Positions 16,987 through 64,000 of a stretch of DNA of 64,000 nt are shown in pieces; the first letter of the stretch is position 1, and each line of letters opens with the position of its first letter. The notes beneath the pieces are model-generated. The model was not told the DNA's origin and did not search any database. It worked only from the letters and a program-made list of their open reading frames with translations. Source of the DNA: Deltaproteobacteria bacterium. Lineage in GTDB: Bacteria > UBA10199 > JACPAL01. The stretch is from assembly GCA_016180845.1 (NCBI GenBank), contig JACPAK010000001.1, positions 86,836 to 150,835 on the forward strand. The letters run 5' to 3'. The translations under genes were made by a program, and so were the position numbers.

Positions 16987-17333
16987 GGGGGCGAATTGGA
17001 TTCGACGAGAGTGCTGACGGCACCAGTCGCAGGTCGAGGTCGCTGGACCCTCGTTAAACACTGGCAAAAACCTAAATGACAATAGCGTAAGCTATGCCAT
17101 GGCTGCTTAATTAGCCGCCCGTTCTCAATGTCCGCTCCCACCGGGTGTTGATGGACGCAACATGTGGGATGCTCATCTGACCGGGACGCTGGGTCAGATG
17201 TTAAGACATACAGTGTCTGGTCTTCCGGCCCCGGTCTTGGAGGTCACCGGAAGATGAGAAACAAACCAAGGCTAAGCCTGTAGTGACTTTGCTCGATCAC
17301 CTTCGGACGCGGGTTCGATTCCCGCCGCCTCCA
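16987..17333 (+). ncRNA. ssrA: tmRNA (SsrA)
   Basis: 5' GGGGGCGAAUUGGAUUCGACG (tRNA-like domain) pairs with 3' ...GCGGGUUCGAUUCCCGC CGCCUCC A (T-arm plus acceptor). Internal tag ORF ggc aaa aac cta aat gac aat agc gta agc tat gcc atg gct gct taa at 17063-17110, giving (G)KNLNDNSVSYAMAA. Confidence 0.9.
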
Positions 17334-17398
17334 CAAAAAAATCGGCTCGAACCGTAATGAAGGAATCTTCACCGGTGGATCCGGATGTGGTAGCTTGA

Positions 17399-18624: not shown

Positions 18625-21126
18625 TTAAGGAGCTTTTCCCATCCCAACCGACAGACACGACCCGGTCAGTTCCTCAATGAGATTGATCTTCAGATCATCG
18701 CCGATATTGCGAATCCGGAGTTGAGGGGTCGCATCCGGTTGGACTTCGATCGCCTCAAGTCGAAGTCGGAGCCGCTGACGGTCGAAGCCACAGGCAGCCG
18801 CCTCGCGGGGAAGGAGCGTCGGCTCTGATTCCTCGGCATCGATAAAAATCCTTTCAACAACCACACCACCCGCCTCACTGGGGGCCCTATCTTCAACACT
18901 CTCGACCGTCATCTGAATCGGCATCTTTTTCCGGACCCGGAAAGGAATCTTCACCGGTGGATCCGATAACGAAATCGCCGCCTGACCTGTCAACTCCCCT
19001 GAAAGAGACATGTGGTCAAAGAAGGCCTCCATCAATTCCAGAGAACCATCCTCGGCCGGTTGAATCTTCAGACGATGCCCCATAAAACGGGCATTCGTAA
19101 TATTTAAACGAAGATCGTTCCATCGCACAAAGGCCTGGTGTGTGGAAAAAACAGCCCCACCCGGATGTTCTGCGAGAATTTCAACCTCTCGACGTTGTGG
19201 GACGATCTGAACCGAGCCTTCGACATCCAGATCCGCTTCGGCAACCCTCGTTGAGAAAATTCCCTCACGACTCCTGTTACTGACCCGTAGACCAAGGGTT
19301 GGTAAATCGGCATGCAGCTTGGCATTGCTAATAGAAATACGAGTATGATTCGGATTTTTCTCATCGGAACCTATGGAGAGAGGCGCGATGCCGGCAAGGG
19401 GACGAAATTTAATCTGCCCTAATCCCTGAATAGCGCCATCTGGAAAGTGATACGAGACAACCCCATCCATCTGGCTCGTGATGATCCCCTCGAAGCGGGG
19501 TCTCCCATTCACAACCTGAAAGTGGACATCGGCCAGACCGGCCCCTTCGGGGATTTCATTCAACCACTTATGGTCTCCCTCGAATTGCCGTCGTTTTGCG
19601 ACAGTATGCAATGAAACCCCATGCCCATCATATTTGAGCTCGCCGGTTCGAAGCTGTTCAATCGAGACATCAGGGGTCAGACCATCAAGTCGGACGGTAA
19701 AATTCTTCACCTCACCACCTTGAGGGAGCTCCAGTTTGGAAAGGACCTTTCCGTTCGACCTCGAAATCTCTTCCAATTTTAATCCATCGTTATGATTCCA
19801 GCTAAAAGCAGCGGCAAGTTCCCTCGTATTCCGCGGATTCAGGGAAACCGCCACCTTCAGAGGGGTTGGGGTACGAGCGGTATTGCTGGCCCGAATCAGT
19901 CGCTCCGGATGGACGTATTCAATCGTCTTCAGACCGGCGATCTCGACTGTCGGTGAAAAAAGCCCACCGCGAATCGCAATCCGATGCCCCCCTGGCGGGA
20001 CCTTCCCCGTGAATTCAAGTCGCAACTTTCTCACCTTTTTTGGATCCATCCTTTTTTGAAGATCGGTCTCCAGATCGACCTCGATCGTGCGATTCGAAAA
20101 ATCACCGGTGATCTCGATGGTCGCTTGTTGCCAACGAGGGATTGTTCCCAAAAATTCTGAGTTGAGCTTTTTCTCTGTTTTGGCGGGTACATGAGCTGAA
20201 CTCTGAAATCCCCCCTTGCCCCCCTTTGACAAAGGGGGGTTGGGGGGATTTTCTTTCTCACTCCCCCCCAAAATCATCCCGACAAGCTGATGAAGATGCT
20301 CGGGGACGCGATAAACAGGAAGTCCCCTCTTCTCAAAATCCCTTTTCGTGATCCCACCGGCATCGAAGACCATCTTTCCCCCCTCCACCGTAAGATCAAA
20401 AAAGAGATAGTTCGCCGTGACGAAAACGGCCCTATCTGGCGTCTCCTGTTCCAATTTTTCACGATAGGACTCCACAAGAAGACCGGCCAACGGAAGGGCC
20501 GAAACCACCTGCAACCAGAGCGGGAGGATTTTTTTATCCTCATCAACCATCTCGACCGCTTTCCCACGTACAGAGACCCATGGGCCAACAATCGGAATAC
20601 CTGTAAAAAATTTTAGCCACGGCTTGAGCGGGATCGGACCGACCGGTGGTTTTGAGACAAGGCGAATCTCTCTGATTTCTCCTCCCTCCCCAACCTCAGC
20701 GACAAACTTGAGTTGGAAGGGGGACTGGGGGAGATCGGCCTCCAAGGGAAGTTGGACCTCGGCACGGATCTTCAAGTTCGGAACTGGCGAAGCTTCTCCA
20801 GATGCGGTTTCGAAAAGTCCTCGCACAAGTCGTTCGACAAAGGCGCTTCGCGGTTCCTCAACAACTGCTTTGTCCCGAAATCGCGCAGCGGAAACAGCAA
20901 CCGGGGGTCTTTCGCAATAAGGTTTTGAGGGAGTTGCTTGGCAATAATAATCTCTCTGACCGATCCCAAAGTGTTCCCTCGGAAGGTCCGAGAACCTGTC
21001 TGAGACCCACCTTGAAACCGAACGATTTTCCGCAGGGAAGCCTTGGACCGGAGGAAAATCGTTCGATGGTGCCGGGCGAGTTTCGCAGGACCTGGAGAGA
21101 GGACACGAGGGATCGGTCGGCCTCAT
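18625..21126 (-). CDS. large hypothetical protein (833 aa), beta-rich, no recognised domain
   Basis: Long uninterrupted ORF whose start overlaps the upstream gene's stop in an ATGA. An internal hydrophobic segment ILPLWLQVVSALPLAGLLV is present. Two in-frame palindromic repeat insertions. Confidence 0.5.
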   Translation of the reverse strand: MRPTDPSCPLSRSCETRPAPSNDFPPVQGFPAENRSVSRWVSDRFSDLPREHFGIGQRDYYCQATPSKPYCERPPVAVSAARFRDKAVVEEPRSAFVERLVRGLFETASGEASPVPNLKIRAEVQLPLEADLPQSPFQLKFVAEVGEGGEIREIRLVSKPPVGPIPLKPWLKFFTGIPIVGPWVSVRGKAVEMVDEDKKILPLWLQVVSALPLAGLLVESYREKLEQETPDRAVFVTANYLFFDLTVEGGKMVFDAGGITKRDFEKRGLPVYRVPEHLHQLVGMILGGSEKENPPNPPLSKGGKGGFQSSAHVPAKTEKKLNSEFLGTIPRWQQATIEITGDFSNRTIEVDLETDLQKRMDPKKVRKLRLEFTGKVPPGGHRIAIRGGLFSPTVEIAGLKTIEYVHPERLIRASNTARTPTPLKVAVSLNPRNTRELAAAFSWNHNDGLKLEEISRSNGKVLSKLELPQGGEVKNFTVRLDGLTPDVSIEQLRTGELKYDGHGVSLHTVAKRRQFEGDHKWLNEIPEGAGLADVHFQVVNGRPRFEGIITSQMDGVVSYHFPDGAIQGLGQIKFRPLAGIAPLSIGSDEKNPNHTRISISNAKLHADLPTLGLRVSNRSREGIFSTRVAEADLDVEGSVQIVPQRREVEILAEHPGGAVFSTHQAFVRWNDLRLNITNARFMGHRLKIQPAEDGSLELMEAFFDHMSLSGELTGQAAISLSDPPVKIPFRVRKKMPIQMTVESVEDRAPSEAGGVVVERIFIDAEESEPTLLPREAAACGFDRQRLRLRLEAIEVQPDATPQLRIRNIGDDLKINLIEELTGSCLSVGMGKAP
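20206..20252. repeat. family-1 palindromic repeat (aaatccccccTTGcccccctttgaCaaaggggggTTGgggggatttt), copy 1, intragenic and in frame
   Basis: Read directly. A near-identical copy sits at 63710-63760. Here it encodes ENPPNPPLSKGGKGG within the 833-aa ORF. Confidence 0.7.
21018..21066. repeat. family-2 hairpin repeat (13-14-bp arms ccgaacgattttcc / ggaaaatcgttcg around a 21-nt spacer), copy 1, intragenic and in frame
   Basis: Perfect inverted arms at 21019-21031 and 21053-21065. A second copy at 62277-62325 has the spacer in reverse-complement orientation. Here it encodes NDFPPVQGFPAENRS. Confidence 0.7.
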
Positions 21127-40927: not shown

Positions 40928-41000
40928 GGGCCTGTAGCTCAATTGGCAGAGCCCCCGGCTCATAACCGGGTCGTTGGAGGTTCGATTCCTCCCGGGCCCA
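40928..41000 (+). tRNA. tRNA with anticodon CAU (elongator Met or lysidine-modified Ile2; not initiator)
   Basis: Cloverleaf readable: acceptor GGGCCUG/CGGGCCC, D-arm AGCUCAAUUGGCAGAGC, anticodon stem CCCGG-CUCAUAA-CCGGG, T-arm GGAGGUUCGAUUCCUCC. Begins 2 nt after the rpoD stop. Confidence 0.85.
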
Positions 41001-42454: not shown

Positions 42455-42807
42455 GAGAGCTGGTCGGGCAACTACGCTTTCAAGCCTTGTTGCAAAAGGT
42501 TTGGAGTGAGGAAAGTCCGGGCTCCACAGGACGCCGCACAGGTTAACGACCTGGCATCGCGAGATGACGGAAAGTGCAACAGAAAGTATGTACGGTCCGC
42601 CGTAGCTTTAGCGAAGGCGGATGCTGTAGTGAAATCCGGTAAACCCTGCGGGGAGCAAGATCAAGTAAACCGTACCCCTAAAACCCATTGGTCCGATGGG
42701 GTTCCTGAAAAGGACGGTACGGAGGGTTGATCGCTAGAGGCGTTTGGTAACAAACGTCCCAGAGGAATGGTTGCCGAAGACAGAACCCGGCTTATAGACC
42801 AGCTCTT
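42455..42807 (+). ncRNA. rnpB: RNase P RNA, bacterial type A
   Basis: P1 pairing GAGAGCUGGUC ... GACCAGCUC. Universally conserved GGAAAGUCCGGGCUCCACAGG (P4 region), AGUGCAACAGAAAGUA, UAAACCCUGCGGGGAGCAAG and the 3' ACAGAACCCGGCUUA. Confidence 0.9.
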
Positions 42808-42833
42808 ATTTTCCTTTCTCTATTTTCTTAAGA

Positions 42834-44549: not shown

Positions 44550-46906
44550 CGGGTGAGGGCATTAAAAAAGTCGCGGTCTTGGGTTCTGGCATCATGGGGA
44601 GCGGTATCGCGGCCCATCTTGCGAGCGCCGGCATCCCCTCTTACCTCCTCGATATCGTTCCAAAAGATGCCGGAGGTGATCGGAATAAACTGGCAAAGGC
44701 CGGCATTGAAAATATCCTGAAGGCAAAACCGTCGCTGATTTATTCGAAAAAGGATGCCCGCCTGATCACCCCAGGAAATTTTGAAGATGATTGGGGGAAA
44801 CTTGCGGAGTGTGATTGGATTATTGAGGTAGTTGTCGAAAAGCTCGAGATCAAGCGCCAGGTCTTCGAACGGGTTGAAAAGGTCATCCGTCCAGGGACCA
44901 TCGTCACCTCCAATACCTCAGGCCTCTCTCTCACTGCGATGGCGGAAGGGAGGGGGGCGGAATTTCGACGTCACTTCCTGATCACCCATTTTTTCAATCC
45001 GGTCCGGTACATGAAGCTCGTCGAGGTGGTTTCTGCGCCAGAAACAGACCCTAAGACGGTCGCACGGGTCGTTAATCTCCTCGAGGAAAGGCTCGGCAAA
45101 GGGGTCGTCTATGCGAAAAATACCCCCAGTTTTGTCGCGAATCGGATCGGCGTTTATAATTGGGTCTCCACATTACAAACGATCCTTCAAGAGGGGTATC
45201 AGGTGGGTGAGGTCGACAAAATATTGGGGGCTGCCATCGGTCGACCAAAGAGTGGGATGTTCCGGACATCGGATATGGTCGGTTTGGATACGCTCGTCCA
45301 TGTCGCCCAGCATACCTATGAATACTGCTCTCGCGACGAAAAGCGGGAGGCCCATCGAATCCCCGCTCCTGTCGAAAAAATGTTGGAAAAGAAAATGCTG
45401 GGTGAAAAAACTGGCCAGGGATTCTACAAAAAAATCAAAAAAGAAGATGGGGGCAGTGAGATATTCCAGCTCAATCTGAAGACATTAGACTATGAGCCCC
45501 AGCCCAAGTTCCGTTATGAATCACTCTCCGCCACCAAAAATATCGATGACGTTTCGAAAAGGATCCGGTTCCTGGTGGATCAAAAAGATCGGGCCGCCAG
45601 CCTCGCCTGGAAATCGGTTCGGGATATGCTTCTCTACTCTGCCCATCGCATTCCTGAGATCGCTGATGATGTGGTTAATATTGATAACGCAATGAAATGG
45701 GGCTTCAACTGGTCCCTCGGTCCCTTCGAAACATGGGATGCGCTGGGGGTCCAGAAGGTTGTTGAGCGACTGAAGTCGGAAAATCTCCCCACTCCCCCTC
45801 TTGTCCAGAAGGTCCTGACAAAGGGGATCGGATCCTTTTACAAAACAGAGAGCGGGCGTCGTTATTTCTTTGACCTAAAAACAGAGTCATATCTCCCGGT
45901 CCCCGATCGACCGGGAATCCTTATTTTAAAATCGGTCAAGGAACAAACCGAGGTCATTCTGAAGAATGACTCTGCCTCTTTAATCGACGTTGGTGACGGT
46001 GTCGCCTGCCTGGAGTTCCACTCCAAGATGAACGCGATCGATGGCGAGATCATTCATCTCATGAATGACGCGGTCGCAAGGGTTGAAAAGGACTTCTCCG
46101 GGCTCGTCCTCTATAATGAGGGAGAAAATTTTTCTGTCGGTGCGAACCTGATGCTCCTTTTTCTGGCGGCACAATCCGAAGACTGGGGACAGATCGAAGA
46201 GGTCGTGAAGTCCTTCCAGCAGGCCTGCATGAGGCTGCGTTACTCAGCAAAACCGGTCGTCGCGGCTCCTTTTAATTTAGCCCTCGGAGGGGGATGCGAG
46301 GTCTCACTGGGGGCAGATCAGATTGTTGCCCATGGAGAATTGTACATGGGGCTTGTCGAAGTCGGTGTGGGACTGATCCCTGCCGGAGGGGGATGCAAGG
46401 AGATGATCCGTCGATTCGATGAATCGCTCAAAACAGGTCCCTTCGCGAAGGTTCAAAAGGCGTTTGAGACGATTGCCTTCGCCTCCGTCTCGACGTCAGC
46501 CAAGGAGGCACAAGAAATAGGTTATTTGACCAAAAAAGATGTCGTCACCCCCTCTCGAGATCACCTTCTCGGAGAGGCCAAGAAAAAGGTTATCGAAATG
46601 AGTCGTAGTTATCAGAGACCGGAGCCACGGCGTGATATCCTGCTCCCGGGCCGCGGTGGATACTACGCCCTCCTCTCCGCTATTGAGGGTTTTAGGTTGC
46701 AAGGAAAGATTACCGATCATGATCAGGTGATCGGCGAGAAACTGGCCCATATCTTGACTGGTGGCGACATGCCCAACTTGGGATACGTCTCAGAACAGCG
46801 TCTCCTCGATCTCGAACGCGAGGTCTTCCTTTCACTCGTCGGGATGGAAAAGACCCAGGCACGTATTCAAAACATGCTTCTCACAGGAAAACCGCTCCGC
46901 AATTAA
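44546..46906 (+). CDS. bifunctional 3-hydroxyacyl-CoA dehydrogenase / enoyl-CoA hydratase (FadN/FadB-type)
   Basis: N-terminal NAD Rossmann VAVLGSGIMGSGIAAHLA and a C-terminal crotonase-fold region. 4-nt overlap with the thiolase gene. Confidence 0.85.
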   Translation: MTGEGIKKVAVLGSGIMGSGIAAHLASAGIPSYLLDIVPKDAGGDRNKLAKAGIENILKAKPSLIYSKKDARLITPGNFEDDWGKLAECDWIIEVVVEKLEIKRQVFERVEKVIRPGTIVTSNTSGLSLTAMAEGRGAEFRRHFLITHFFNPVRYMKLVEVVSAPETDPKTVARVVNLLEERLGKGVVYAKNTPSFVANRIGVYNWVSTLQTILQEGYQVGEVDKILGAAIGRPKSGMFRTSDMVGLDTLVHVAQHTYEYCSRDEKREAHRIPAPVEKMLEKKMLGEKTGQGFYKKIKKEDGGSEIFQLNLKTLDYEPQPKFRYESLSATKNIDDVSKRIRFLVDQKDRAASLAWKSVRDMLLYSAHRIPEIADDVVNIDNAMKWGFNWSLGPFETWDALGVQKVVERLKSENLPTPPLVQKVLTKGIGSFYKTESGRRYFFDLKTESYLPVPDRPGILILKSVKEQTEVILKNDSASLIDVGDGVACLEFHSKMNAIDGEIIHLMNDAVARVEKDFSGLVLYNEGENFSVGANLMLLFLAAQSEDWGQIEEVVKSFQQACMRLRYSAKPVVAAPFNLALGGGCEVSLGADQIVAHGELYMGLVEVGVGLIPAGGGCKEMIRRFDESLKTGPFAKVQKAFETIAFASVSTSAKEAQEIGYLTKKDVVTPSRDHLLGEAKKKVIEMSRSYQRPEPRRDILLPGRGGYYALLSAIEGFRLQGKITDHDQVIGEKLAHILTGGDMPNLGYVSEQRLLDLEREVFLSLVGMEKTQARIQNMLLTGKPLRN

Positions 46907-61849: not shown

Positions 61850-64000
61850 TCATGTGGTTATAAGGCTTGGTGGGACAGTGGGGGGTGTCGGATCCGCATA
61901 AGAAGGTAAATTTGTACCCTTTTCAGTCGGTTTTTTTGACAAATTCACAACTGATTTCAAAAGGATCCCTTCCAGAAATTCCGGGGCAAGACGTCCCCAA
62001 ATCAGAGGCTCTTCCAGGCACTCATTCAACTGAATTATAAATTCGCCGGTGACCTCGACACCAACAGGGGCTGCCGGACCAAAAGAGATCTTCGGATACG
62101 GATGAAACCCCTCTGAGAATTTAACCGGCAAGTTGGCGCGAGAGACCGCTCGACGGATATGATCGACAAATTCGAGGTGACTCAAGAAGGCGGCAGGACC
62201 GGTTTTGGAGTAGGTGCAAGTAAATGACCAGCCTGTGCGAGCCTTGCTCCGGCCTCCTGCGAAAATCGCGGCACCATCCGAACGATTCTCCTCTGGTCCA
62301 AGGCTTCCCGGCGGAGAATCGTTCGGTATTATTGTGGCGACGTCCTCGGAGGCCTTCACAAGATCTCTCACAGACTGGTTTAAACTGTATTCCCGAACCT
62401 CGGTCGTCGTCTTTTTCTTCACCAATTTCTGATTTTCATCATAAACCGGCAGTTCATACGACCGATTCCGGACCGCCTTATAATCACAAACCCCGCAGAT
62501 CGTGCATTTCCCGGTAGAACAATCATCGATGAAGGCCTCGTGAAGCGATGCTTGATACTCATCCCAAAGCCACTCCTTATCCATCTCAACAAAGAGATGA
62601 TCCCAAGGCAAAACCTCTTCTCTCTCTCGTCGCCGTTCGACATAGAACTTGGGATCGATCCCACATTCCTCCCAAGCCTCCTGCCAGAGATGGAATTTCA
62701 ACCCCTCATCCCATTCGTCAAAACGACACCCCTTTTCCCAGGCCCGTACGATGAGGCCTGAAAGCCGGCGATCCCCCCTGGAAAAAACCCCCTCCAGATA
62801 GGTCGTATCGAGTCGATGAGGTTTGAGATGCAACTTTCTCGAACGAATCCGGGACTCGAGAAGATCCAGTTTTCGAACCGATTCTTGCAGAGAACTCTGG
62901 GACTCCCATTGAAAAGGGGTAAACGGTTTCGGGACAAAAGACGAAACACCGAGATTGATCTCGGCAGATCGGTTGCGTTGAAGCCCTTCTCGAAGGGTAC
63001 GATAACCCAGCTCGGCGATCTCGATGACGTCCTCATCGGTCTCTGTCGGAAGTCCAATCATGAAATAAAATTTCATGAGACGCCATCCAGCGGAAAAGAC
63101 CGCCCTGACCGTGTTCATTAAATTTTCTTCGGAATTTCCTTTATTAATCACCCGCCGCATCCGGTCTGTCGCTGCCTCAGGAGCAATCGTGAAACCGGTC
63201 TTACGTACCCGCTTGATCTCCTCGATCAGGGCTGGGGTCAGTTGTTCCACACGTGTCGCCGGTATCGAAATAGCAACCCTCTTCTCTTGAAATTCATCCA
63301 TCAGATCTCTTGCGAGAGGGGTGAGGCAATCATAATCGCCGATCGAGAGAGAGACGAGACTGACCTCCTCCTGACCGGTCGCCGCAATCTGATTCCGAAC
63401 AATCTGCTTCACCGTCTCAGGAGAGCGTTGCCTCTCGGGACGATCGATATAACCGGCCTGGCAGAAACGACACCCACGCACACATCCGCGCTGAACCTCG
63501 ACGCCAACACGGTCATGGATCACCTTCGTATTCGGAAGGATCGGTTTTTTTGGGTAGTAGGCCTTGTCCAGATCTGAGACGACACGCTTTTTGATCCCTT
63601 TGTAATCTTCTAAGAGCGACTTGATCTCACGAATTGTTCCATCATCGTTATAAGTTGGTTCGAAGAATGAGGGGATGTAGACGCCGGGGATTTTGGAGAG
63701 TTGTTTCAAAATCCCCTCCGGCCCCCCTTTGACAAAGGGGGGTGAGGGGGGATTTTTCCAATTCTTCACAATCTCGCAAATCTCCAGGATCGCCTCCTCA
63801 CCGTCTCCAATCAGGATCGCATCGAAGAAATCGGCGACCGGTTCGGGGTTGTATGCCCCAGTTCCGCCTCCAAGGATGAGCGGATAGCTATCGTCCCGAT
63901 CTTTGGAATAGAACGGGATCCCGCCGAGATTGAGGACCGTCAGGATATTCGTGTAAGTCAGTTCAAACGGAATCGTGATCCCGAGGATATCAAGTTCGCG
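61850..64000 (-). CDS. radical SAM protein (B12-binding-like N-terminal domain + radical SAM core + C-terminal extension), 5' end beyond window
   Basis: CxxxCxxC motif GCVRGCRFCQAG. The reading frame stays open upstream of the listed Met through 64000, with a B12-binding-like region (LILGGGTGAYNPEPVADFFDAILIGDGEEAI). It contains both repeat families in frame. Confidence 0.75.
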   Translation of the reverse strand, partial: RELDILGITIPFELTYTNILTVLNLGGIPFYSKDRDDSYPLILGGGTGAYNPEPVADFFDAILIGDGEEAILEICEIVKNWKNPPSPPFVKGGPEGILKQLSKIPGVYIPSFFEPTYNDDGTIREIKSLLEDYKGIKKRVVSDLDKAYYPKKPILPNTKVIHDRVGVEVQRGCVRGCRFCQAGYIDRPERQRSPETVKQIVRNQIAATGQEEVSLVSLSIGDYDCLTPLARDLMDEFQEKRVAISIPATRVEQLTPALIEEIKRVRKTGFTIAPEAATDRMRRVINKGNSEENLMNTVRAVFSAGWRLMKFYFMIGLPTETDEDVIEIAELGYRTLREGLQRNRSAEINLGVSSFVPKPFTPFQWESQSSLQESVRKLDLLESRIRSRKLHLKPHRLDTTYLEGVFSRGDRRLSGLIVRAWEKGCRFDEWDEGLKFHLWQEAWEECGIDPKFYVERRREREEVLPWDHLFVEMDKEWLWDEYQASLHEAFIDDCSTGKCTICGVCDYKAVRNRSYELPVYDENQKLVKKKTTTEVREYSLNQSVRDLVKASEDVATIIPNDSPPGSLGPEENRSDGAAIFAGGRSKARTGWSFTCTYSKTGPAAFLSHLEFVDHIRRAVSRANLPVKFSEGFHPYPKISFGPAAPVGVEVTGEFIIQLNECLEEPLIWGRLAPEFLEGILLKSVVNLSKKPTEKGTNLPSYADPTPPTVPPSLITT
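62277..62325. repeat. family-2 hairpin repeat, copy 2 (arms ccgaacgattctcc / ggagaatcgttcgg, 21-nt spacer inverted relative to copy 1)
   Basis: Read directly. Perfect 14-bp inverted arms. Encodes NDSPPGSLGPEENRS in the radical SAM gene. Confidence 0.7.
63710..63760. repeat. family-1 palindromic repeat, copy 2 (aaaatcccctccggccccccctttgacaaaggggggtgaggggggattttt)
   Basis: Read directly. Encodes KNPPSPPFVKGGPEG in the radical SAM gene, parallel to ENPPNPPLSKGGKGG in the 833-aa gene. Confidence 0.7.

What the first reader, a model, noticed from the sequence alone, without database searches (positions are those of the whole stretch)
20206..20252. Family-1 ~47-bp G/C-tract palindromic element inserted in frame in two unrelated genes (copies at 20206-20252 and 63710-63760)
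The sequence aaatccccccTTGcccccctttgaCaaaggggggTTGgggggatttt forms a long hairpin, with 10-bp outer and inner stems separated by symmetric TTG bulges. It occurs inside the 833-aa hypothetical gene. A near-identical copy, aaaatcccctccggccccccctttgacaaaggggggtgaggggggattttt, occurs inside the radical SAM gene. Both are read in frame and encode the parallel peptides ENPPNPPLSKGGKGG and KNPPSPPFVKGGPEG. In the radical SAM protein the insert sits between the B12-like domain and the radical SAM core. Homologues would be expected to lack it there. This is the behaviour of a mobile or selfish palindromic element that tolerates coding context, like the Rickettsia palindromic elements, and I do not recognise this one as named.
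Basis: seen in the sequence. Interest (0 to 1): 0.72.

Follow-up and report, generated by a model that had tools for sequence, protein, structure and literature searches.

The report
Gene-invading palindromic repeat, many phyla
A 46-base DNA hairpin made of C- and G-runs sits in frame inside two unrelated genes here, and the same element occurs in bacteria of several phyla and their phages, often inside essential genes, so it looks like a very small selfish DNA element that proteins can tolerate.

Summary
Two copies of a double-stem palindrome, AAAT-C6-n-C6TTTGACAAAG6-n-G6-ATTT, lie at 20206-20251 and 63709-63755. Both are read through by minus-strand genes.

In the TIGR03960 radical SAM protein the element encodes a low-confidence coil between two helices, and most orthologues lack it. 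The one homologue of the hypothetical protein also lacks it.

The 21-nt core is not confined to this genome. Hits came from Nitrospirota, Nitrospinota, Methylomirabilota, Thermodesulfobacteriota, Beta- and Gammaproteobacteria and others, including five cultured isolates. Eighteen viral contigs also carry it.

All ten spanning ORFs that I tested elsewhere are genuine genes carrying the element inside or between their domains. One Nitrospirae cobalamin operon holds nine copies in 8 kb.

Four reading frames are used. C6 and G6 give Pro-Pro and Gly-Gly in any frame, and only one frame in six has a stop.

The ends are sharp (ATTT). I found no target duplication and no linked transposase.

Best reading: a non-autonomous, RPE-like mobile palindrome that tolerates coding context. 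It is unnamed in the literature I could search. How it moves is unresolved.

The parts
20206..20252 (.). Family-1 palindrome, copy 1: AAAT-C6-TTG-C6-TTTGACAAA-G6-TT-G6-ATTT(T). Both stems are perfect. It is read on the minus strand as NPPNPPLSKGGKGG.
   Evidence: -21.3 kcal/mol, z = -6.1. It is identical over 48 nt to a copy at an unrelated locus in the related MAG CAYWRF01 (L045).
63709..63755 (.). Family-1 palindrome, copy 2: AAAT-CCCCTCC-GG-C6-TTTGACAAA-G6-TGA-G6-ATTT. The outer arm is partly decayed. It is read on the minus strand as NPPSPPFVKGGPEG.
   Evidence: -19.4 kcal/mol, z = -4.0.
18625..21126 (-). Host gene 1: a conserved hypothetical protein. The ORF is 833 aa; NCBI annotates 733 aa starting at 20826. 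Copy 1 lies in a poorly conserved stretch about 290 residues into the ORF.
   Evidence: (no Pfam match). The single homologue P0122 (64% by BLASTP, 66% in alignment A2) has unrelated sequence and no palindrome at that point.
61850..64000 (-). Host gene 2: TIGR03960 B12-binding radical SAM protein (815 aa; its 5' end runs past the window). Copy 2 encodes residues about 182-195, a coil between helices 167-181 and 193-200.
   Evidence: In the AlphaFold model the mean pLDDT is 61 for residues 181-190, against 86-97 in the flanking blocks.
21017..21067 (.). Family-2 palindrome, copy A (CCGAACGATTTTCC...GGAAAATCGTTCG). It belongs to a different repeat family found in the same two genes. Here it lies upstream of the annotated start of host gene 1.
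   Evidence: (I6).
62277..62327 (.). Family-2 palindrome, copy B, in the opposite orientation to copy A. It is read in frame in the disordered linker of the radical SAM protein, ahead of the DUF2344 domain.
   Evidence: (I5). The segment at residues 630-686 has pLDDT below 50.

Best explanation
The two sequences are copies of a very small (modal 46 nt), non-coding, hairpin-forming repeat. It spreads or has spread as DNA within and between genomes, and it can stay inside protein-coding genes.

Anatomy: an outer stem (AAATC6 / G6ATTT) and an inner stem (C6TTT / AAAG6) are joined by a short, variable, asymmetric bulge and closed by a variable 3-nt loop.

It survives in genes for three reasons. 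C-runs and G-runs translate as Pro-Pro and Gly-Gly in every frame. Only one of the six frames contains a stop. Copies that persist lie in surface loops or inter-domain linkers, where a Pro/Gly-rich peptide of about 14 residues is harmless.

Shown here: multicopy status, cross-phylum spread, presence or absence among orthologues, in-frame residence in genuine genes, sharp ends, and maintained palindromy.

Inferred: that it is moved in trans by an enzyme encoded elsewhere. My working guess, at roughly 0.3, is a hairpin-recognising single-strand DNA transposase of the HUH/Y1 type, or something that behaves like one. The reasons are that the ends carry a fixed tetranucleotide, no target duplication is visible, and singlet and inverted-doublet forms exist as with REP and REPIN. 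For the commonest form, the core plus one tetranucleotide is 42 nt, which is 14 codons.
For: Multicopy and beyond chance:
By my own arithmetic, about 1 hit would be expected by chance in 596 Gb.
- Arms outside the search pattern are conserved. The outer run is G6 in 116 of 170 arms and the tail is ATTT in 148 of 170. Base composition returns to background at the fifth base beyond the G-run.

Cross-phylum:
- Record titles name Nitrospirota, Nitrospinota, Methylomirabilota, Thermodesulfobacteriota, Beta- and Gammaproteobacteria, Binatia and Ignavibacteria. Cultured isolates include Geomonas, Geomesophilobacter, Hydrosulfovibrio, Chitinibacter and Thiocystis.
- The loci range from 36 to 69% GC.

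Presence or absence among orthologues:
- Radical SAM.
- The hypothetical protein.
- Sideroxydans LeuRS compared with an 87%-identical orthologue.

In frame in real genes:
- 10 of 10 ORFs tested: LeuRS twice, ValRS, MetRS, GlnA, a PLP enzyme, a tRNA methyltransferase and cobalamin enzymes.
- Nine elements in six cob/cbi genes within 8 kb.
- Phage portal genes.
- Four frames are used in roughly similar numbers.
- The insert is a low-confidence coil in the model.

Hairpin is maintained:
- Most sites have a perfect 9-10-bp inner stem.
- About ten variant arms carry fully compensated changes.

Recent spread:
- An identical 48-nt copy sits at an unrelated locus of a related MAG.
Against: - No transposase or other recurrent neighbour gene appeared in 138 loci.
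- The one RAYT seen nearby is flanked by its own GTAG repeats, not by this element.
- No target-site duplication was found.
- I found no pair of near-identical genomes with a filled and an empty site, so no recent jump is demonstrated. At every empty site the surrounding linker also differs.
- There are only two copies in this 64-kb window.
- Conserved blocks separated by variable spacers (39 different spacers) would also fit selection for a host function.
- Recurrence at the same column in radical SAM orthologues and in Mu-like portal proteins of only 27-37% identity fits an old insertion kept uniform as well as it fits repeated insertion.
Confidence: 0.68

Rival explanations
1. The element is an old resident, not a current jumper. 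It entered permissive linkers long ago and is now kept uniform and palindromic by gene conversion among copies, or by hairpin-templated repair. Precise hairpin-mediated deletions would explain the orthologues that lack it. On this view the element is still a repeat family, but the repeated hits at one site reflect shared ancestry.
For: - Family members occupy the same alignment column in radical SAM orthologues of 48-83% identity and in five Mu-like portal proteins of 27-37% identity.
- The right-hand junction is shared between the window and its closest relative L146, while the inner stems differ by three compensated pairs.
- No transposase and no target duplication were found.
Against: - Most intermediate radical SAM orthologues lack the element, which would require many independent precise losses.
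- An identical 48-nt copy lies at an unrelated locus in a related MAG.
- Near-identical copies occur in different phyla inside vertically inherited genes, so DNA transfer of the element itself is needed in any case.
Confidence: 0.15
2. It is a host-useful structured signal whose sequence is held by selection, and the coding copies are by-products. Candidate roles are a two-way intrinsic terminator, an RNA-stabilising hairpin, or a binding site for a nucleoid or other protein.
For: - The design is an A-tract, a G+C hairpin and a T-tract.
- Copy 1 scores as terminator-like on the plus strand.
- Conserved blocks are separated by variable spacers.
- About 40% of copies are not spanned by a long ORF.
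Against: - Inside genes, the sense strand of neither window copy scores as a terminator, and a terminator inside LeuRS, GlnA or a cob operon would be harmful.
- No Rfam family matches.
- A host signal would not be expected to be nearly identical across phyla yet absent from most orthologous sites.
Confidence: 0.1
3. It is protein sequence under selection: a PPxPP(L/F)xKGGxGG hinge that is useful to the proteins carrying it.
For: The peptide sits in linkers or loops and recurs in the same linker of several orthologues.
Against: - Four different frames and strands are used, giving PPLT, PPFD, PPLS and PPFV, and the two window copies use different frames.
- DNA palindromy is conserved where the flanking protein is only about 30% identical.
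- Many copies are not in long ORFs.
Confidence: 0.03
4. It is an assembly or sequencing artefact of G/C homopolymer hairpins.
For: Most hits come from metagenome-assembled genomes, and homopolymer runs are error-prone.
Against: - It is present in cultured isolates, including a complete chromosome (Chitinibacter S2-10, L073).
- It appears in assemblies from many studies and platforms.
- The reading frame is preserved across it in conserved genes.
Confidence: 0.01

Closest known systems
Rickettsia palindromic elements (RPE)
   Same: Both are multicopy palindromic repeats with no coding capacity of their own. Both are found inserted in frame in many unrelated genes, essential ones included, where they add a peptide at positions compatible with the fold. 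A 2024 review of MITEs treats RPEs as the extreme case of this behaviour (PMC10969869).
   Different: RPEs are about 100-150 bp, are confined to Rickettsia, and each family encodes one conserved peptide. This element is 46 nt and built of homopolymer runs. It is read in four frames and is nearly identical across several phyla and in phages. Sequence similarity to RPE consensus sequences was not tested, because no RPE library was available.
REP / REPIN repeats mobilised by RAYT (Y1 HUH) transposases
   Same: Both are short G+C-rich hairpins with a fixed tetranucleotide at the end. Both occur as singlets, as inverted doublets and in mosaic arrays, and neither shows a target duplication.
   Different: The tag here is AAAT/ATTT, not GTAG or CGTC (PMC3733652). 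About half of the copies appear to be intragenic, whereas REPs are defined as extragenic (PMC12306157). REP families are usually specific to a lineage. The one RAYT found near a copy has its own GTAG repeats.
Bacterial MITEs (Correia/NEMIS, ERIC, Chunjie, QMITE, Nezha)
   Same: Both are non-autonomous, have terminal inverted repeats, are multicopy, and are sometimes fused in frame to host ORFs (PMC10969869).
   Different: This element is much smaller than typical MITEs. No target duplication and no parent insertion sequence with matching ends were found.
Small dispersed repeats of heterocystous cyanobacteria (Elhai et al. 2008; cited in PMC4390886)
   Same: From my own memory of that paper, and unverified because it could not be opened: they are very small (about 21-27 nt) mobile hairpin repeats that nest into one another and can lie within genes. 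The composite and nested forms seen here resemble that.
   Different: The sequence and the hosts are different. Those repeats are described as restricted to one cyanobacterial group.
PARCEL palindromic amphipathic repeat coding elements (PMC2996958, seen)
   Same: Both are palindromic DNA that codes in either orientation and is distributed horizontally among distant microbes. This is taken from the title and the start of the abstract only.
   Different: PARCELs are longer tandem intragenic repeats that encode amphipathic modules of surface proteins. They are not 46-nt dispersed hairpins.

Membership tests
Rickettsia palindromic elements | Multicopy palindromic repeat inserted in frame in unrelated ORFs at structurally tolerant positions | tested here: met
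Rickettsia palindromic elements | Length of about 100-150 bp, Rickettsia hosts, and one conserved peptide per family | tested here: not met
   The element is 46 nt. Its hosts span several phyla. Four reading frames are used.
Rickettsia palindromic elements | Sequence similarity to RPE family consensus sequences | not tested
   No RPE sequence library was available. Rfam gave no match.
REP / REPIN (RAYT-associated) | Short imperfect palindrome occurring as singlets and inverted doublets in many copies | tested here: met
   Copy number in the source genome itself is unknown; there are 2 copies in 64 kb.
REP / REPIN (RAYT-associated) | Conserved GTAG or CGTC tetranucleotide tag at the end | tested here: not met
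   The ends are AAAT/ATTT, with A 95%, T 95%, T 95% and T 85%.
REP / REPIN (RAYT-associated) | Extragenic location | tested here: not met
   59% of copies are spanned by a stop-free stretch of at least 600 nt, against 85% of random positions. All 10 ORFs tested are real genes.
REP / REPIN (RAYT-associated) | A cognate RAYT gene flanked by the repeats | tested here: inconclusive
   One RAYT was found by motif search in 138 loci (L073; NF047646). It is flanked by GTAGGGTCGGC... repeats, not by this element. Whole genomes could not be searched.
MITE | Terminal inverted repeats and no coding capacity | tested here: met
MITE | Target-site duplication flanking the element | tested here: not met
   Among 34 full copies, direct repeats of 1-5 nt at the ends occur no more often than chance.
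MITE | A parent insertion sequence with the same ends | tested here: inconclusive
   No recurrent transposase was seen. Half-sites 80-2800 nt apart enclose unrelated DNA. Only 8-kb samples of each genome were available.
Integron attC site | R''/R' core sites RYYYAAC ... GTTRRRY | tested here: not met
   These sites are absent from the sequence. No Rfam match reached the gathering threshold.
Intrinsic terminator | G+C hairpin followed by a T-run on the transcribed strand | tested here: inconclusive
   Copy 1 matches only on the strand antisense to its gene, and copy 2 does not match.

The most novel reading that the evidence does not exclude
This would be a so-far unnamed superfamily of about 46-nt palindromes that has crossed phylum boundaries, with Mu-like phages among its carriers. 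Its homopolymer design makes it neutral in almost any reading frame. That would let it colonise loops of essential enzymes and phage portal proteins on a scale so far described only for RPEs within one genus. It would be mobilised by an enzyme class not yet linked to it.
Probability: 0.35. Interest if true: 0.82.

Novelty: new variant of a known kind. Interest (0 to 1): 0.7.

Why it matters
If this holds, the Rickettsia palindromic elements are not a one-genus curiosity. A much smaller element does the same thing in free-living bacteria of several phyla and in their phages.

- It would be a widespread source of loop and linker insertions in conserved proteins.
- It would cause confusing 'PPxKGG' hypothetical peptides and length variation in annotation.
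- The four homopolymer runs placed inside genes are a possible source of frameshift-prone tracts.
- It provides a clean sequence handle for finding the enzyme that moves hairpin DNA between such distant hosts.

Tried and rejected
- **Rfam.** Neither the gathering thresholds on the whole window nor a permissive E-value search on the element gave a believable family. The best hit was 21.9 bits against a 53-bit cut-off.
- **BLAST of the 48-mer against the plasmid and phage collections.** No match, but the low-complexity filter probably masks the query, so this says little.
- **Guilt by association.** I ran an all-against-all BLASTP of 5,394 ORFs from 138 loci. No transposase-like family recurs. 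The largest cluster, found in 18 loci, was not identified.
- **RAYT hypothesis.** A motif search found one RAYT (L073). It is flanked by its own GTAG repeats.
- **Parent insertion sequence.** Separated half-sites enclose unrelated short DNA, not a transposase.
- **Target duplication.** None was found.
- **Exact empty site.** Three filled-versus-empty comparisons were made. In each, the linker itself has diverged, so the junctions cannot be read to the base.
- **Core-length test for frame selection.** The 38-nt class makes up 13 of 18 gene-like copies and 5 of 11 non-gene-like copies. This is suggestive but not significant.
- **A possible third window copy at 45780-45831.** It scores E = 0.35 and lies inside a FadB-like gene. 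I treat it as chance.
- **HIP1 (GCGATCGC) enrichment.** Five sites against 1.6 expected, which is not convincing.
- **Family-2 pattern in JGI metagenomes.** The exact form gave 0 hits. A loose form gave 2 unrelated palindromes.
- **Two contig look-ups** failed because the ORF starts I chose are not the annotated ones.
- **Literature.** Searches for the core sequence, the four peptides, RPE-like elements and small dispersed repeats found no description of this element. The Geobacter metallireducens genome paper mentions multicopy sequences within and between genes that are shared with many genomes, but I could not match its sequences to this element.
Full report
**1. Is it there?**

Yes. Copy 1 is AAAT-CCCCCC-TTG-CCCCCC-TTTGACAAA-GGGGGG-TT-GGGGGG-ATTT at 20206-20251. 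Copy 2 is AAAT-CCCCTCC-GG-CCCCCC-TTTGACAAA-GGGGGG-TGA-GGGGGG-ATTT at 63709-63755.

The 21-nt core is exact in both. No shuffle of the window reached the four matches the scan reported, which counts each copy on both strands (mean 0.03 in 100 shuffles). The repeat finder pairs the two at 85% identity over 47 nt and reports both as near-perfect inverted repeats. As single strands they fold into one long hairpin, at -21.3 and -19.4 kcal/mol with z-scores of -6.1 and -4.0.

A profile built from 33 full copies found elsewhere detects only these two in the window. It also gives a weak site at 45780-45831 (E = 0.35), which I regard as chance.

**2. Coding context in the window**

Copy 1 lies in the minus-strand ORF 18625-21126. 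NCBI annotates it as a 733-aa hypothetical protein, and it has no Pfam match. Copy 2 lies in the TIGR03960 B12-binding radical SAM gene, which runs off the window; the full protein is 815 aa. Both copies are read through, as NPPNPPLSKGGKGG and NPPSPPFVKGGPEG. They use different frames of the core.

In an alignment of 28 radical SAM orthologues, the element falls in a variable stretch after GDGEEAILEICExVKxWK. Many orthologues have nothing there. Two empty sites read GTGAAAAAATGGAAATCGGATAAAAATAATTTATTAAAG and AAAAAATATAAAAATAAAAATGATTTGTTG.

An AlphaFold model (mean pLDDT 81.6) places residues 182-192 as a coil between two helices. The 181-190 block has a mean pLDDT of 61, against 86-97 on either side.

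The only homologue of the hypothetical protein has unrelated sequence at that point, in a poorly conserved segment. Its identity is 64% by BLASTP and 66% in the alignment.

**3. The same linker in other genomes**

Three more distant radical SAM orthologues carry a palindrome of the same family at the same place.
- L140 (48% identity) has AAAAAATCCCCCCAACCCCCCTTTACTAAAGGGGGGAAAGAGGAGATTTTA.
- L141 (66% identity) has AAATCCCCCTGTTTCCCCCTTTGAAAAAGGGGGACGGAAGGGGGATTTA.
- The closest relative, L146 (83% identity, from the same MAG as the homologue of host gene 1), has CCCCCTCTTAATGTAAGAGGGGGTCGGGGGGA. Its inner stem differs from the window's by three changes, each compensated on the other arm.

A further relative, L147 (CAYWRF01), instead has a GTAG-tagged REP-like palindrome read in frame at that spot.

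So the linker is a place where palindromic repeats accumulate. What is conserved there is DNA symmetry, not protein sequence.

**4. Outside the window**

By my own arithmetic, about one chance hit would be expected in 596 Gb.

The records are labelled as follows:
- Nitrospirota, as many independent MAGs.
- Nitrospinota.
- Methylomirabilota.
- Thermodesulfobacteriota: Geobacter, Geomonas, Desulfuromonadales, Syntrophobacterales, Desulfobaccales.
- Betaproteobacteria: Sideroxydans, Gallionellaceae, Sulfuricella, Thiobacillus, Nitrotoga, Chitinibacter.
- Gammaproteobacteria: Methylobacter, Competibacteraceae, Thiocystis.
- Binatia, Ignavibacteria and a few others.

Five records are cultured isolates from two phyla. 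The loci range from 36 to 69% GC. Eighteen viral contigs also hold the core.

Parts that were not in the search pattern are conserved:
- Beyond the inner hairpin there is a variable spacer of 1-6 nt, in 39 different forms.
- Then comes a G-run, G6 in 116 of 170 arms.
- Then comes ATTT, in 148 of 170 arms.
- Base composition returns to background exactly at the fifth base after the G-run, so the element has sharp ends.

A copy identical to window copy 1 over 48 nt lies at an unrelated locus of CAYWRF01, a relative of the source organism.

The profile finds 262 sites in the loci. The loop sequence varies (TTTGACAAA, TTTTCTAAA, TTTGCCAAA, TTTGAAAAA and others), so the window's form is one branch of a larger family.

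**5. Living inside genes is the rule, not an accident of this window**

Of 149 exact-core copies, 59% are spanned by a stop-free stretch of at least 600 nt, against 85% of random positions in the same loci.

I tested ten spanning ORFs against Pfam. All are genuine genes with the element inside or between their domains:
- two LeuRS
- ValRS, with two tandem copies
- MetRS
- glutamine synthetase
- a PLP-dependent enzyme
- a tRNA U5-methyltransferase
- a precorrin methylase fusion
- CobQ and CbiA

An 8-kb cobalamin operon of a Nitrospirae MAG holds nine family members inside six genes.

The Sideroxydans LeuRS is 83% identical to that of S. lithotrophicus, which lacks the insert. Against an 87%-identical orthologue, QIPPNPPLTKGGERVIY stands where NVADK does.

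Seven of the eight viral ORFs tested are portal proteins. Five Mu-like portals that share only 27-37% identity carry the element at the same alignment column.

Four frames are used in roughly equal numbers: PPLTKGG, PPFDKGG, PPLSKGG and PPFVKGG. A fifth, PLCQRG, is rare, and the sixth has a TGA stop.

**6. Anatomy and what it suggests**

The modal full element has a 38-nt core from the first C to the last G, with bulges of 3 and 2 nt, plus AAAT and ATTT, giving 46 nt.

I found no direct repeats flanking 34 full copies. Most inner stems are perfect over 9-10 bp. About ten variant arms with an internal C-to-T change have the matching G-to-A on the other arm.

Besides full elements there are singlets, consisting of the inner hairpin plus one outer arm. 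There are also composite forms. In these, the outer arms and two inner hairpins enclose 80-125 nt of unrelated DNA, or a tandem array as in Thiocystis. These arrangements recall REP singlets, REPIN doublets and mosaic arrays.

A fixed end tetranucleotide, a hairpin and no duplication are what hairpin-recognising single-strand (HUH/Y1) transposition leaves behind. For the modal form, the core plus one tetranucleotide is 42 nt, or 14 codons, and copy 1 adds exactly 14 residues. This is inference only. The gene-like copies lean towards the 38-nt class (13 of 18 against 5 of 11), but not significantly.

**7. The search for a mobiliser failed**

No protein family recurs next to the element. The single RAYT found, 850 nt from a copy in Chitinibacter, is bracketed by its own GTAG repeats. 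I could not search whole genomes.

As for a host function, copy 1 looks terminator-like only on the strand antisense to its gene, and copy 2 does not at all. No Rfam family fits.

**8. Comparison with what is known**

In behaviour this is closest to the Rickettsia palindromic elements. A 2024 review still presents those as the outstanding case of in-frame MITE insertion and speculates that similar processes may exist elsewhere (PMC10969869). In anatomy it is closest to REP/REPIN, but it fails the defining tag and the extragenic location.

Full-text searches for the core sequence, the peptides and related phrases found no description. The library lacks most subscription journals, so an earlier description cannot be excluded.

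**9. Limits**

- Most hits are MAGs, so individual taxon labels may be wrong. The isolates and the flanking housekeeping genes make the breadth across at least Pseudomonadota and Thermodesulfobacteriota secure.
- No recent transposition event, no exact junction and no enzyme has been shown.
- I cannot separate repeated insertion at hot spots from an old insertion followed by homogenisation.

Noticed in passing
window 21017-21067 and 62277-62327: A second, unrelated palindrome family (CCGAACGATTYTCC ... GGARAATCGTTCGG, about 51 nt) lies in the same two genes, with the two copies in opposite orientations. One is read in frame in the disordered linker (pLDDT below 50) of the radical SAM protein. 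The other lies just upstream of the conserved part of the hypothetical protein. The exact pattern is absent from JGI metagenomes, so this family seems restricted to one lineage.
   Followed up: partly
window 17360-17383 and 18942-18965: An exact 24-nt direct repeat (AAGGAATCTTCACCGGTGGATCCG) with sharp edges brackets an AAA_14/DUF4143 ATPase gene. It begins 24 nt after the tmRNA gene (16987-17336), and the second repeat lies inside the 3' part of the 833-aa ORF. It looks like the scar of an integrated cassette next to ssrA.
   Followed up: partly
L147 (CAYWRF010000052.1), radical SAM linker: A GTAG-tagged REP-like palindrome (TGTAGGGGCGCGGTTCACGCACCCCTGGGGCGGGTAGACCCCGCCTCTAC) is read in frame as CRGAVHAPLGRVDPAST at the very site that holds the G/C-tract element in the window.
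   Followed up: partly
P0123-P0242 (LeuRS of Gallionellaceae and relatives): The lengths of these orthologues range from 857 to 983 aa. A few loops carry many different repeat-like peptides, for example LPHPNPLPGGEGTNGA, TLSPSPSPASGRGEQNL and IPDEVGTSLPSPSG. This suggests that several other palindromic repeat families also insert in frame.
   Followed up: partly
L122, L127, L132, L133, L136/L138 (IMG/VR contigs): Five Mu-like portal proteins (phrog_113) share only 27-37% identity, yet they carry the element at the same alignment column about 95-105 residues from the C-terminus. Two other portal families (L128, L137) also carry it. It is unclear why portal genes are favoured.
   Followed up: partly
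L076 6221-6605 (Thiocystis violacea DSM 208): The outer arms enclose a tandem array of three to four units, each made of an inner hairpin plus about 90 nt. In L079, L073 and L012, two inner hairpins with outer arms flank 80-125 nt of unrelated DNA.
   Followed up: partly
L011 1-8000 (Nitrospirae MAG JACQZF010000032.1): Nine members of the family lie inside six cobalamin-biosynthesis genes in 8 kb. The CbiA-domain match is stretched by about 78 residues.
   Followed up: partly
L073 2120-2648 (Chitinibacter sp. S2-10): A REP-associated tyrosine transposase gene is flanked by inverted GTAGGGTCGGCTTCAGCCGAC repeats, a textbook RAYT-REP unit. It lies 850 nt from a composite copy of the G/C-tract element but is unrelated to it.
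   Followed up: yes
L079 and L111: Contigs binned as Candidatus Nitrotoga and as Nitrosovibrio, from the same study, share identical sequence around the element. One of the two bins is probably wrong, or the region was transferred.
   Followed up: no
window 42456-42810 and 40928-41000: RNase P RNA (class A) and a tRNA gene. These are ordinary housekeeping RNAs, noted only for orientation.
   Followed up: no
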